From: Octopus vulgaris
Taxonomy: Eukaryota
NCBI GenBank assembly: GCA_951406725.2
Contig: OX597836.1
Location: 34,968,001-35,032,000, forward strand
Length of the DNA stretch: 64,000 nucleotides
Reading direction: 5' to 3'
Below, piece by piece: positions 43,174-57,053 of this stretch; the stretch's first letter is position 1; every line of letters begins with the position of its first letter. Made by a program: the position numbers and the translations under genes. The notes under the pieces are model-generated. The model was not told the origin of the DNA and searched no databases. It saw only the letters and a list, made by a program, of their open reading frames with translations.

Positions 43174-43834
43174 TCAAAGGTGAACCTGAATTGAGCAGAT
43201 TTATAATTGAAGACATTCCAACTTTGGCAATCCTGTCTATTTCCTTTTTCTAGATATATAGTTTCAGGCATATATAGTTTCTTATGTGGTTAAGAAGATC
43301 GCTCGTGACCATGTTGTTTTCAGGTTCAATCTCAATGTGCTGTACCTTAGTCAATTCTATTACGAATCCCAGGCCGACCAATATCTTGTGAGTGAATTTG
43401 GTAGAAGGAAACGGCATGGAAACCTGTCACACATACACACATACATATATATATACATACACACACACACACACACACACACACACACACACACACACAC
43501 ACACATATATATATATATATATATATATATATATACAAATATATATTTATTTATATATATACGTCTTATTGTGGTGTCCTGTACTCACGTATAATTATTT
43601 ATATATGCATGTAGATGTAGGTACGTACATATATGTTTGTATGTGTGCATATATTTTTATTTATCACATTATATATATATATATATATATATATATATAT
43701 ATATATATATAGGTACAATAAATTCAGGGTGAATACTTGATAAATGTAAGCACCTGTATATGCCAGCTAGTAGCATAGGTGAGAGGATATATGTATCAAA
43801 TGAAATAAAATGAAAAACAGGACACAAAAGATGT

Positions 43835-43928
43835 TGCGATACATATGTTTCGAGCTTTATAGAACAACTTATTCTTACATCAATGCATAATCGACATAAC
43901 AGATAGTTCAAAACCCTCTTCAGCCGCA
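43835..43928 (-). ncRNA. Type-I hammerhead ribozyme
   Basis: On -: tgcgg-CTGAAGA-GGGTTTT...AAAGCTC-GAAAC-ATAT-GTA-tcgca. Stem I 5 bp, stem II 7 bp with a long insert, palindromic stem III, GUA cleavage triplet. Confidence 0.75.
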
Positions 43929-44617
43929 TGCAATTGCTACACCAAAGACTTGTATCACATTATGAAAGATTTGAGAAAAAAACATTTGGTTTTGTTTATA
44001 ATCAAGGTGAGAAGATATGCAAGCAATTATGTGAATAAACAAATTAAATATTACAGCTTGGGTTTGATATACAAGATATGTACGTTGACTCACAGGAGAT
44101 TCGATGGAAAATACATTTTCAATTGAATCTCCTGTGAGTCAACATGGGATCCCTTGCCAACAATGCTAACTTCATTTGATTAAGGTACCTTCAGCTCAAT
44201 GACTAGACAGCAGATTACCCCTCATTTGGATCATTACTACTTCTGAGGTTCGGTTACATATGAAATATATATAGCCTGAATTTTACCTGCTCATTCCCAA
44301 ATTTTGGATGTCTCTTTGTTTACACAGCAATCTCTGCTGTTATCCATAAGCTGTAACACAATTGTTTTTACTTATCGAACTTCAATACGGGAAAAATTTA
44401 CAACCTTCTATGTAAATAAACCGCTATTGTTTCTGAAAGTTGTTTTTTATATCTTCTACAAACTGCTCAAACCTTACTTCATCCTATACCTTGATCCTTG
44501 CATCTTACCTTCACATACCTATATATATATATATATATATATATATATATATATATATATATATATAGAATAAAGAAATAAATGGAGTTGAACGAAGATG
44601 TCAATAAAATTCCATTA

Positions 44618-44699
44618 CTTTCGACATATGTTTCGAAGACAACATAGTTTAATTCCAAAGGATTCAACGGTGAAAGATTCAATCTTCTCATCAGGAAAG
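44618..44699 (-). ncRNA. Type-I hammerhead ribozyme
   Basis: On -: ctttc-CTGATGA-GAAGAT...GTCTTC-GAAAC-ATAT-GTC-gaaag. Canonical core, GUC triplet; sits within an inverted repeat (44570-44650 / 44710-44786). Confidence 0.82.
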
Positions 44700-45094
44700 A
44701 ATAAAACCATGTTGCTTCGAAACATATGTCGAAAGTAAAGGAATTTTATTAGCATCTTCGTTCAACTCCATTTATTTATTTATTCAGCTATATCACACAA
44801 ATTACTGCACATTAACCCGGAGTTTCTACCTCTGGATAGGTCGCTTCAACCGTGTTTCTGACGTGAATTTGCTACCCTGGTAACAGTTCATTGAATTTTC
44901 CATGTTAACGGTAAACATAGGATGATTCATTCACCCATCGAAATATATACATATATGTATGTATATTATATACAGTAATGTTCCATTAGTGATAAGATCA
45001 CATCTATCAATCTATCTATCTATCTATCTATCTATCTATCTATCTATCTATCTATCTATCTATCTATCTATCTATCTATCTGTCTGTCTGTCTA

Positions 45095-53889: not shown

Positions 53890-54560
53890 GGCGTGGTCTG
53901 TTTACACACAGTACTTGGAAAGAAGGTGTGTAGCGTGTGATCGTCGGACCGACCATGATGAAGAAAGATGAGCAGAGAATCCGCATGAAATTTTGCCAAA
54001 CGCTTAGTGATACTTGCTGTGAGGCCTCCATAAGGTTTTCAAAATGTTTTCATCGTTTTCGACACAATCGAGATTTTGTGCAACTGAAACCCGAGTATCT
54101 TTTCGGTCAGCTGAAAGCAGTTTTGGCACAAACTTGGCAGACATGTGTCTCATACACAAATCTTCACTGATAATGGACTGAACTGAACTGTAACTAATCC
54201 GCACATCCCCTGATAACTCATGGATGGTGATTCGAATATTTGCCCCCACAGCTTTGCCCTCATCTGCGATGTTTTTCTCAGTTCTGTTGGTTGCGGGTCT
54301 CACAAAACGTTTGTGAATATCGACATTTTTTCGGCCATCTTAGAAACATCTGGACAACTCGTACACTTGTGTGCGGCTCATACACTCATCTCCATACACT
54401 TTCTTCAACTTTGGCCTCTGAGCAGTTATCACCATCACAATTTTCTCTGTCACAGCAGAAGTGACTTAGAACATTAAAATTTAGTGCACGTGCAGAGCAG
54501 AGCTCACGGTCAATATTTGCCAGACGGTTTCACTCTGCGTGTTTTAGCTTCGTTACTATG
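53890..54560. mobile_element. Rearranged mariner fragments in both orientations
   Basis: On +: EQRIRMKFC (mariner N-terminus). On -: RITIHELS...VQSIISEDL.MRHMSAKFVPKLL. Confidence 0.7.
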
Positions 54561-54831
54561 GCAATAGCCCCTCGTATATGTATCTATGTACACACACACA
54601 CACACACGTATATATATTTATATATATACATATATATGTGTTTTTTTTTATATACATATATATATAACTATAGAGTAGTGGTACAACAAAGCACCAATGT
54701 TTACTGGAAATAGCAGTCAATACATTTACGATGCTATAGTAAAGCTTCACTGTGTATATACAGGCAAAGACGTGTGAGGGCAGCAAACAAAGAAGAACGT
54801 TACATAAATGTACAACCCAGAATCGGATAAT

Positions 54832-54900
54832 CCAGTACCTAGGTTTCGGACTATTCAAACACGTTTGTCTTCGTAAATTTGATTAGTCTTCATCAGCTGG
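54832..54900 (-). ncRNA. Type-I hammerhead ribozyme
   Basis: On -: ccag-CTGATGA-aGACTAATCAAAT...GTTTGAATAGTCc-GAAAC-CTAG-GTA-ctgg. Long stem II (first pair A.C mismatch), palindromic stem III. Confidence 0.72.
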
Positions 54901-57053
54901 GTTTACCTGGACAATATTTCAAATGTTGAACCACTACGCTATATTTATACTTCTACCTTTACTTTATTTAACTGGAAAGTAATACATTAGTATTGCAATA
55001 TTTTATTTTCCATATCTATATATATAAAACTGTAGTTGTGTGAGTGTCTGTCCCCTTCGATTTAGATTCCTAACTCCTCCCACATTTTGCGGTGCAGTTT
55101 AACCAAATTCGGGTATCTTATAGTCGTGATTCATATCGAGCCCCTCTGACTATTAGCGCGCGTCAACGATGAGTCTACGATTTTAAAAATAATTTAACAT
55201 CATTTTTTATTCCATTTTAATGCATAAAATGCATCGTGTGTCGATGGCGGCGGAGTTGGCGTCCACGCTCACAGCTGCACCTGTTTGCTTCTCCCCCTTC
55301 CCTCCCTCGTGATGCTGTGGGGAAGGGAGTGTAAAGAAATCAACGTCGTAATGCGTTGTGAAGGAAACCAGCGTTCTTTTAGAACAACGACTTCATGGCT
55401 TGAAGACACCAAAACAAAAATGGCTAAGAAAGCCCGAATTTATAAGGGAAGTAACTCTCTAAAAATGCTTATATAGTTATTTCCCTTACAAACCCGAGCA
55501 ACGCCGGGCGATACTGCTAGTATATATATATATAAATAGAAAACTGGGACAAGAACGCAAAACATTTAGAAGACGATACAAAAAACACGGACGGGACATT
55601 CGAAGCCTTCAATCTTCAGTCAAGAACCGGATCATCTTCGCATATATATATATATATATGTATACAGAGAGAGAGAGAGAATGAGAGAGAGAGAGAGGGG
55701 GGAAGATATGTCTGTAAAACAAGTGTTTATATATATATATATATATATATATATATATATATATATACTTCATTGAGGTGTATATACGTACACACACATG
55801 CACGGACATCTATCTATCTATCTATCTATCTATCTATCTATCTATCTATCTATATATATATGTATATATGTATGCATATATATCTGTGTGTATGTGTGTA
55901 TATATGTCTGCTCATATATATATATATATATATATATATATATATATTTACACACGTGTGTATACAAAATGAGGAATAGTTAAACAGCCGACAACTGATG
56001 AAGGGTCCTTACTCTGTGTTTACTTGTCCTGTTTTCCACTTTTCCCTCTCGTTGTTTACGTATTTAACACGTTTGCTTACATATTTCCTGTTGTTTGCAC
56101 AGTTGGTGACGTCCTGTTCCCATATTTGCATACATACACACACATATTTACATACATATGTATTATTGATTATTATCTTATTGAACACCACGCATCCATT
56201 TCCAAGTAAATTTTTCTTCACTATTTTGAATTCGACTCTACTCTCTCTTCTTCCGCCATCCTTGTCTAATTCCTTTTTCCTCCGCCTTCCTCTTTCACCG
56301 TTTTCTGTCTGTCTGTCTGTCTGTCTGTCTTTCTCTTTCTCTCTCTCTCTCTCTCTCTCTCTCTCTCTCTCTCTCGTTGCTCACACGTAACTATCGTCCA
56401 TCTTTCTTTTCCTCACATGATCATCTTTCTTTTCCTGCACGGACGTTCAAAAGACAGGGTTTTTTTTTCTCTCGCTTCTGTCTTTTCTCTTTTCAAAGAA
56501 AATATTTCTCCCAGCGTTCACTATTTTCCTCTCATTCTGGTCTAACTTCCCTCCGTGCTTGTTTTCGTTCCGTTTCCTTGTATGTCTCCACTGTCCTGTT
56601 TTTGTTCCCAACTTTAACCCTCCATAAATCCTAAATTTTATTCTAGAATTTATGGGAGCAACTGTCTTTGAAGATTCATATTGTCGTTGTATGCTCGAAA
56701 TGAGGGATCGGCAAAAGAGTGCGATAGAATAATTTCTAAGCTTAAAGTAAGTATTTGGGTTGATGTGTTTGACTAAAATCCTTTAAGGTGATGGTCCAGC
56801 ATGGCCACTGCCAAATGACTGAAACAAGTAAAAGACACACACAGAGACACACACACACACAAACACACACACACACACAGACACACACACACACACACAC
56901 ACACACACACAAGCATTCCACGATACTTCAAGAATACTACAACACTGTGAACAGATACAAAGATGCGAACCGGTAAACCCTTATTAACAGGTAATTCACG
57001 CTTGGTACAGAATAAAGTTCCTTTTGTTGCTTTAAATAAAGTAACAGATTTAC

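What the first reader, a model, noticed from the sequence alone, without database searches (positions are those of the whole stretch)
43712..55000. Several apparently unrelated short elements each carry a minimal hammerhead ribozyme and sit beside (TA)n tracts
Seen: three minus-strand motifs (43835-43928, 44618-44699, 54832-54900) have full type-I hammerhead topology: stem I, CUGANGA, stem II, GAAAC, palindromic tetraloop (AUAU, AUAU, CUAG), GUH, stem I. Their stems differ in sequence yet all pair, which argues against chance. Each lies in a 200-400-bp non-coding element starting next to a TA-rich microsatellite, and stem II is enlarged to ~40-65 nt. Variants occur at 38714-38748, 45846-45891 and ~35989-36035. 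Known: Penelope-like element pLTRs and retrozymes carry minimal type-I hammerheads whose palindromic stem III cleaves as a dimer, and Penelope RT/GIY-YIG remnants are present in this window. Inference: a diverse set of ribozyme-bearing, microsatellite-targeting non-autonomous retroelements. All three intact copies are sense to the EXTL3-like pre-mRNA and could cleave its introns.
Basis: partly seen in the sequence, partly recalled or inferred. Interest (0 to 1): 0.8.

Follow-up and report, generated by a model that had tools for sequence, protein, structure and literature searches.

The report
Penelope transposon ends bearing long hammerheads
The hammerhead-shaped RNA motifs in these introns are real, but most are the cut-off ends of Hydra-type Penelope jumping genes sitting in TA microsatellites and one is a gene-less 428-base repeat likely copied by the same machinery, both known kinds of element, here with an unusually long stem II that a standard RNA-family scan missed; self-cutting is predicted, not tested.

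Summary
The three motifs (A 43923-43840, B 44694-44623, C 54896-54836, all minus strand) exist. So does a fourth family, D, as an inverted pair (35993-36068 +, 35262-35187 -). The window holds 5 motifs against 0 in 300 shuffles. A-C are high-copy families whose 3' ends abut (TA)n. They are not all non-autonomous. Longer copies of A and B, and relatives of D, continue upstream into RT + GIY-YIG ORFs with Hydra-clade Penelope motifs, and sister families have intact 842- and 899-aa ORFs, one in a near-perfect tandem. Hydra elements are already known to carry hammerheads and target (TA)n (PMC8557442). Only C is an ORF-less, circularly permuted ~428-nt retrozyme-like unit. The unusual part is stem II, 42-78 nt against about 25 nt or less in the published Hydra table; Rfam missed it. 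The motifs are intronic and sense to the EXTL3-like gene, but intron cutting is unlikely: B and D are predicted to be sequestered by their own inverted arms, and none has a same-sense family partner in the window. This scan already noted similar elements elsewhere in this and other genomes.

The parts
43712..44002 (-). Element A: 5'-truncated 3' end (pseudo-LTR plus ~75-nt tail) of a Hydra-clade Penelope-like element, ending at (TA)21 (43670-43711)
   Evidence: 29 further copies at 93-97% identity; same-strand RT+EN upstream of A-type hammerheads in L308, L310, L311, L312, L314
43835..43928 (-). Hammerhead A: core 43923-43840, 65-nt stem II, palindrome ACAUAUGU, predicted cut after GUA
44568..44700 (-). 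Element B, inverted arm carrying the complete hammerhead (core 44694-44623, 53-nt stem II, GUC), ending at (TA)24 (44520-44567)
44699..44972 (+). Element B, main arm: starts inside stem II (no CUGAUGA; GAAAC..GUC at 44719-44730) and runs through the ~190-nt tail, which resembles the ORF leader of B sister copies
54667..54928 (-). Element C: 5'-truncated copy of an ORF-less ~428-nt circularly permuted unit, ending at a TA-rich tract (54609-54666)
54832..54900 (-). Hammerhead C: core 54896-54836, 42-nt stem II with an A.C mismatch at its base, palindrome ACCUAGGU, GUA
54939..55013 (+). Inverted fragment of the C unit's tail segment, joined to the truncated 5' end
35061..35300 (-).
35955..36136 (+). 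Element D, arm 2, with a complete hammerhead (35993-36068); 93% inverted copy of arm 1, with a retrotransposon-like ORF fragment (35602-35946) between the arms
   Evidence: relatives L100, L103, L106 (77-79% over ~90 nt) have Hydra-type RT/EN upstream in sense
38714..38748 (-). Decayed short-stem-II minimal hammerhead (core CCGACGA) of another repeat family
45851..45891 (+). Decayed short-stem-II minimal hammerhead of a very abundant family (8 of 40 random 10-kb stretches)
24076..59238 (-). Host EXTL3-like gene. Coding pieces at 58639-59238, 58112-58741, 47830-47988, 42049-42186, 28281-28451 and 24076-24228; A, B, C and D lie between them

Best explanation
Motifs A and B are the hammerhead-bearing 3' ends of protein-coding Hydra-clade Penelope-like retrotransposons left as truncated, often inverted copies in TA microsatellites, D likely is too, and C is an ORF-less 428-nt unit likely copied by the same enzymes. 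Shown: longer copies carry RT plus a C-terminal GIY-YIG ORF upstream of the same hammerhead on the same strand; 5' ends vary; inverted arms are common; 3' ends cluster at two points downstream of the predicted cut site; (TA)n follows. Inferred from Craig 2021 and Frangieh 2024: the element's endonuclease nicks (TA)n, and its RT starts inside a more-than-unit (tandem or circular) RNA, downstream of the ribozyme, and copies back through it, usually stopping early or flipping strand, which leaves 200-400-bp stubs. Inferred: in tandem transcripts two same-family hammerheads pair through the 8-nt palindrome (double hammerhead), possibly with help from the element's protein, and cut out unit RNAs. 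Single intronic stubs would be mostly inactive passengers.
For: B: a GIY-YIG frame lies directly upstream of the hammerhead in L025, L027, L029. All 11 other top endonuclease hits fetched carry B-type hammerhead sequence in the same 3.3-kb locus, one of them partial. Long RT+EN frames in L143-L146 and L233-L235. A: 5 of 10 fetched endonuclease loci carry a 79-90%-identical A hammerhead downstream on the same strand. L168 has RT, a CxCX5C linker and EN, with an inverted A tail at its 5' break. The sister family has an intact 842-aa ORF with RxRW, DKT, YRDD, CxCX5C, CxxC and CxH. The B sister family has an 899-aa ORF in a head-to-tail array of period 3624 nt, units 99.95-99.97% identical, each with a 55-nt-stem-II hammerhead. 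(TA)4+ within 30 nt of the 3' end: A 27 of 30, B 23 of 30, C 17 of 30, against 5.8% background. Inverted arms in 15 of 30 A loci. C: none of 60 loci has an RT/EN hit within 1.5 kb; 23 of those 60 show head-to-tail repetition at 374-434 nt, mostly ~428; a 75-77% relative has two complete hammerheads 435 nt apart. Palindrome and stem changes keep pairing: A has ACAUAUGU 41, ACAUGUGU 13, ACACGUGU 5 of 67; C stem I has C-G 29 vs G-C 10 and C-G 35 vs U-A 8 of 53.
Against: No cleavage, circular RNA or transposition was tested. C's autonomous parent was not found: one endonuclease hit near a C-type motif (L291) is on the opposite strand. D's link rests on relatives only 77-79% alike over ~90 nt. The B lineage lacks the CxCX5C linker and has RWL or RWA in place of RWK. 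No phylogenetic tree with published Hydra references was built. The TA counts are biased upward because the queries ended at the TA tract, and the sets include the window copy and a few overlapping or duplicated loci. Within families most variation looks like neutral decay; in C the core is no better conserved than its flanks (0.916 vs 0.910-0.916; intact core in 27 of 53). The monomeric hammerhead fold is 1.3-6.7 kcal/mol above the MFE even locally.
Confidence: 0.85

Rival explanations
1. One reading: all are independent short non-autonomous ribozyme retroelements (retrozymes or SINE-like) of 200-400 bp.
For: The window copies are short and non-coding; C is ORF-less and permuted; short copies dominate the top hits.
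Against: 5' ends are heterogeneous, and A and B continue into RT+EN ORFs in longer copies.
Confidence: 0.07
2. The intronic sense copies actively cut the EXTL3-like pre-mRNA (recursive or co-transcriptional intron cleavage, or gene regulation).
For: A, B, C and one arm of D are sense and intronic; cores are intact; the hammerhead fold of C is only 1.3 kcal/mol above its local MFE; some 2-bp-stem-III hammerheads cleave weakly as monomers (PMC7229834, section read).
Against: B's inverted arm puts the active fold 51 kcal/mol above the MFE, and D's 128 kcal/mol. Monomer stem III probability is 0.09 or less. A and B share a palindrome, but their stem I strands are not cross-complementary (read from the sequence), so a heterodimer should not form active cores. 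No same-sense family partner lies in the window. 4 of 5 in sense is within chance. The Anolis PLE hammerhead needed protein and showed no cut-site read ends in RNA-seq (PMC11167929, sections read).
Confidence: 0.1
3. The motifs are chance matches, or fold-back/MITE DNA-transposon palindromes unrelated to ribozymes.
For: The sequence is AT-rich and full of inverted repeats; Rfam finds no hammerhead.
Against: 5 vs 0 in 300 shuffles; 3 vs 0 in 40 shuffles of 400 kb; 307 vs 1 for the reversed pattern; fixed position next to PLE ORFs; stems vary across families yet pair.
Confidence: 0.02
4. C is an ordinary pLTR of an autonomous Penelope-like element whose ORF-bearing copies were not sampled.
For: Same end architecture as A and B; only the top 40 candidates per search were scored and flanks were 1.5 kb.
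Against: In C the tail runs straight into the sequence upstream of the next hammerhead, leaving no place for an ORF; there is a complete 435-nt ORF-less dimer.
Confidence: 0.12

Closest known systems
Hydra clade of Penelope-like elements, incl. Hydra-1_Obim (Craig et al. 2021, PMC8557442; read: abstract, sections 3 and 11, passages, supplement parts 2 and 24 of 59 and search excerpts)
   Same: C-terminal GIY-YIG without CCHH, DKT, CxxC and CxH around the EN, CxCX5C linker (A lineage), (TA)n insertion, hammerhead near the 3' end in sense, 5'-truncated inverted arms. Most Hydra hammerheads in File S2 also have a non-canonical pair (U.U) at the base of stem II.
   Different: These are different families from Hydra-1_Obim, whose listed hammerhead has a 7-bp stem II with an 8-nt loop. 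Stem II here is 42-78 nt, against about 25 nt or less for Hydra rows in File S2. The ORFs carry long Asn/Ser-rich linkers (842-899 aa). A has a 3' UTR of about 1.3-4 kb, TA/TG-rich in the long copies read. The B lineage lacks CxCX5C.
Metazoan non-LTR retrozymes (Cervera and de la Pena 2020, PMC7229834, parts 2-3 of 6 read; Li et al. 2026 bioRxiv 10.64898/2026.07.22.740005, parts 1-3 of 5 read, supplements not seen)
   Same: C is a low-GC, ORF-less unit of 428 nt with a type I hammerhead, in head-to-tail arrangement, with a two-hammerhead dimer in a relative. It folds stably as a circle (-105 vs -78 +/- 6 kcal/mol for mononucleotide shuffles). Li et al. propose a PLE-pLTR origin.
   Different: Mostly 1-1.6 dispersed units rather than long arrays; carries PLE-type inversions and TA targeting; circular RNA not shown here; parent not found.
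PLE minimal hammerheads (Cervera and de la Pena 2014, PMC4209133, parts 1-2 of 4 read; Lunse et al. 2017, recalled, not read)
   Same: Type I topology, short stem I, palindromic positions 15-16 and loop 3, predicted dimer cleavage, mostly dispersed single motifs from truncated PLEs, pairs on opposite strands 100-700 bp apart.
   Different: Helix II there is 6-8 bp with a small loop; here it is a 42-78-nt imperfect hairpin. The PLE-X1_sMoe hammerhead with a 36-nt loop 2 (Craig File S2) is a precedent for a long stem II outside animals.
Poseidon PAc of Anolis (Frangieh et al. 2024, PMC11167929, parts 1-2 of 4 read)
   Same: Two internal RT start sites downstream of the hammerhead that define the 'tail'; AT-rich targets. 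A, B and C each show two preferred 3' end points.
   Different: In PAc the starts lie inside the ORF; in the B sister array the insertion ends about 40 nt before the start codon. Different clade.

Membership tests
Hydra-clade PLE (A, B parents) | Single ORF, RT followed by C-terminal GIY-YIG endonuclease | tested here: met
   Pfam GIY-YIG only below its cut-off (E 0.005)
Hydra-clade PLE (A, B parents) | DKT in place of DKG; RWK motif near the N-terminus | tested here: inconclusive
   DKT present in sister-family ORFs; RW present but followed by L or A, not K
Hydra-clade PLE (A, B parents) | No CCHH; CxxC and CxH flanking the conserved E/N of the endonuclease | tested here: met
   CNLC/CPH, CQLC/CIH and CNIC/CKH; no cysteine pair between GIY and YIG in the frames read
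Hydra-clade PLE (A parent) | CxCX5C linker between RT and EN | tested here: met
   present in L168, L316, L317
Hydra-clade PLE (B parent) | CxCX5C linker between RT and EN | tested here: not met
   absent in the intact 899-aa B sister ORF; B is filed as a Hydra-like lineage that departs in this feature
Hydra-clade PLE | (TA)n insertion preference | tested here: met
   27/30, 23/30, 17/30 vs 5.8% (query bias noted)
Hydra-clade PLE | Groups with Hydra in an RT phylogeny | not tested
   Reference proteins were seen only as supplement text; similarity judged by eye
PLE structure | pLTR or tandem organisation, inverted 5'-truncated arm, optional tail | tested here: met
   hammerheads flank the ORF in L237, tandem array L231-L232; inversions; two 3' end points
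Non-LTR retrozyme (C) | ORF-less unit of a few hundred nt, in head-to-tail repeats, with a type I hammerhead in consecutive units | tested here: met
   a complete dimer seen in one relative locus only (L288/L289)
Non-LTR retrozyme (C) | Expressed as circular and linear monomer RNAs | tested here: inconclusive
   Only contigs of guessed-RNA runs with small shares; joints that go back by one period cannot tell a circle from tandem DNA
Hammerhead ribozyme type I | Conserved core CUGANGA / GAAA / UH with three stems | tested here: met
   C has A.C instead of G10.1-C11.1, as does the young A sister family
Hammerhead ribozyme type I | Self-cleavage after UH | not testable with these tools
   needs an in vitro assay

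The most novel reading that the evidence does not exclude
Octopus-type Hydra elements and their ORF-less derivatives carry a distinct long-stem-II hammerhead subclass (42-78 nt), possibly in over ten thousand copies and invisible to Rfam here. The long hairpin could be a docking site for the element's own RT-endonuclease that switches on cleavage and directs internal priming. With recently active, near-identical tandem arrays and a parasitic 428-nt unit in one genome, the long-proposed link between ribozyme cutting, RNA circles and Penelope transposition would be directly testable.
Probability: 0.2. Interest if true: 0.6.

Novelty: new member of a known kind. Interest (0 to 1): 0.3.

Why it matters
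Mostly annotation value. It shows that a large population of PLE hammerheads in this genome escapes Rfam and may escape short-stem descriptors, and that short 'ribozyme elements' are largely transposon stubs. The useful resource is the set of young intact Hydra families (842- and 899-aa ORFs, a four-hammerhead tandem array) beside an ORF-less retrozyme-like unit. These are good substrates for testing what PLE hammerheads do, which is still open. A host-gene effect is unlikely.

Tried and rejected
Rfam scan at E<=5: no hammerhead hit, only microsatellite noise. The window's own Penelope ORF remnants as parents: no parent-like tblastn link. A as a 1.1-kb element with a fixed 5' end: suggested, rejected when the 'end' proved to be an internal TA/TG-rich UTR. 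A as a Naiad 3' end: the Naiad_Obim and Naiad_Ovul ends read looked different by eye, and the ORF order is RT then EN. Parent search for C: none among 60 C loci or 30 pattern loci, and none in the tested B-lineage loci. Unconstrained RNAalifold on family alignments did not recover the hammerhead fold. Expression: no RNA holder listed on record; contigs of four guessed-RNA runs cover C-like sequence but cannot show strand, ends or circles. An A-B heterodimer in the intron: rejected because the stem I strands do not cross-pair. Literature: five searches; none listed a paper describing long-stem-II hammerheads in cephalopods, but the library lacks most subscription papers and Repbase, and unread supplements (57 of 59 parts of Craig's; all of Li's) may hold these families.
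Full report
Observation. The three motifs are present as described on the minus strand: A 43923-43840, B 44694-44623, C 54896-54836. 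A strict scan found A, B and an inverted pair D (35993-36068 +, 35262-35187 -) but not C, whose stem II begins with an A.C mismatch. Allowing one unpaired base gave exactly these five motifs, against none in 300 local dinucleotide shuffles (descriptor written after seeing the motifs). In 40 arbitrary 10-kb stretches of the genome, a slightly looser setting (stem I of 3 bp or more) found 3 motifs, two with stem II of 70-78 nt, against none in 40 shuffles. That extrapolates very roughly to the order of 10^4 intact motifs genome-wide and makes this window about ten times denser than average. A C-type core pattern has 307 genome matches against 1 for its reverse. Rfam found no hammerhead. The two other 'variants' are damaged copies of abundant short-stem families. 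The genome is 2.8 Gb in 227 contigs; 'octopus-like' is my inference from recalled repeats and from similarity to Hydra-1_Obim.

Families. First-look candidates numbered 2087 (A), 2760 (B), 1468 (C) and 34 (D); these are not copy numbers, and at most 40 were scored per search. A, B and C share no significant DNA similarity. Copies have variable 5' ends. 15 of 30 A loci have an inverted arm at the 5' break. 3' ends cluster at two points per family and are followed by (TA)4+ in 27/30, 23/30 and 17/30 loci, against 5.8% background (biased by the query design, and including the window copy and a few overlapping loci).

B. Longer copies continue upstream into a GIY-YIG frame in ribozyme sense. The endonuclease has at least 150 scored matches, and all 11 other loci fetched carry B hammerhead sequence, one partial. 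Frames of 521-833 aa hold RT and EN. A sister family has many 899-aa frames and a head-to-tail array of period 3624 nt with four hammerheads and units 99.95-99.97% identical, so it moved recently. B's tail matches sequence just upstream of the ORF in L234 and L235, so the tail is the leader of the next unit. The window copy is two arms head to head: a + arm starting inside stem II and a - arm with the full motif.

A. It extends through a long TA/TG-rich UTR. L168 holds RT, a CxCX5C linker and EN, with an inverted A tail at its 5' break, but lacks the hammerhead downstream. Of 10 endonuclease loci fetched, 5 carry a 79-90%-identical A hammerhead downstream on the same strand; 3 (L309, L316, L317) belong to a young sister family with its own long-stem hammerhead, two of them with intact 842-aa ORFs; and 2 showed no downstream motif. 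D. Relatives L100, L103 and L106 have RT/EN remnants upstream in sense; this link is weaker. The protein motifs fit the Hydra clade of Craig et al., known for (TA)n targeting and hammerheads and including an octopus member. The exceptions are the missing CxCX5C in the B lineage and RWL/RWA in place of RWK. No tree was built.

C. None of 60 loci has an RT/EN hit within 1.5 kb. The 3' end runs straight into the sequence upstream of the next hammerhead, with a repeat offset of 374-434 nt, mostly ~428, in 23 of 60 loci. A relative has two complete motifs 435 nt apart. This fits non-LTR retrozymes and the proposal that they derive from PLE pLTRs. The parent was not found.

Ribozyme. All five motifs have a perfect 8-nt palindrome over stem III, with predicted self-duplexes of -7 to -11 kcal/mol, and stem II folds as a long imperfect hairpin. 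Intact cores: A 53/67, B 52/62, C 27/53, D 9/15. Two-sided changes occur between subfamilies (A palindrome, C stem I), but most variation looks like decay, and related copies are not independent. The A.C pair at the base of stem II also occurs in the young A sister family, and published Hydra motifs often have U.U there. Stem II of 42-78 nt exceeds all Hydra rows in that table (about 25 nt or less); one plant PLE has a comparably long one.

Mechanism. Shown: ORF linkage, truncation, inversion, TA flanks, tandem arrays. Inferred: target-primed reverse transcription at (TA)n, starting inside the RNA downstream of the hammerhead, as shown in vitro for an Anolis PLE whose hammerhead needed protein and was dispensable for insertion. 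Full-motif insertions span the cut site, so the template must have been uncleaved there or re-ligated; these data cannot separate the two. Dimer cleavage in tandem transcripts follows the published model and is untested here.

Host gene. Pieces of an EXTL3-like gene flank all the elements on the minus strand (one expected GT64 segment was not located). Four of five motifs are sense, which is within chance. In the pre-mRNA the antisense arms of B and D are made first and are predicted to trap the motifs (51 and 128 kcal/mol gaps). A and C in context have gaps of 12 and 8 kcal/mol, and monomer stem III probability is 0.09 or less. Intron cleavage is unlikely.

Verdict. Real, but largely a known kind of element: new Hydra-clade families and one retrozyme-like derivative, with a long stem II as the only distinctive feature. 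Earlier notes of this scan reached similar readings on other DNA; my reading was recorded before I saw them. Expression data were uninformative. Unread supplements and Repbase may already list these families.

Noticed in passing
L231-L232 (G000:C1:119512500-119528500): Recently amplified Hydra-type element: head-to-tail array, period 3624 nt, intact 899-aa ORF, four long-stem hammerheads; many more 899-aa frames elsewhere in the genome.
   Followed up: partly
L316, L317: Second young Hydra family with an intact 842-aa ORF and all diagnostic motifs; its hammerhead has A.C at the base of stem II.
   Followed up: partly
L288/L289 (G000:C1:76174417-76177912): ORF-less dimer with two complete hammerheads 435 nt apart; a natural substrate for cleavage tests.
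   Followed up: partly
L279-L307 (pattern hits): Several further families share the ACCUAGGU palindrome with different stems I and II; not clustered or traced to parents.
   Followed up: no
window 1-3963: Tandem array of a 78-nt unit, about 51 copies, 96% matches.
   Followed up: no
window 62962-63769 and 62233-62816: Large inverted repeats: 404-nt arms with no spacer around a (TA)n tract, and 267-nt arms 50 nt apart; may be two-armed insertions or an assembly effect.
   Followed up: no
window 33345-34154 (-), 9919-10660 (-), 39902-40192 (+): Penelope-like RT/GIY-YIG remnants of another, CCHH-type lineage (clade label not tested), not the parents of A-D.
   Followed up: partly
PMC8557442 supplement, Naiad_Obim and Naiad_Ovul 3' ends: Both appear to hold a hammerhead-like core with a CUGUUGA variant and a ~30-nt stem II; the paper lists only a half core for one. 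Seen by eye, not tested.
   Followed up: no
G000:C23 near 12.59 Mb and C2 near 66.13 Mb: Two other GT64-domain (exostosin family) loci, scoring higher than the window's gene, which looks divergent.
   Followed up: no
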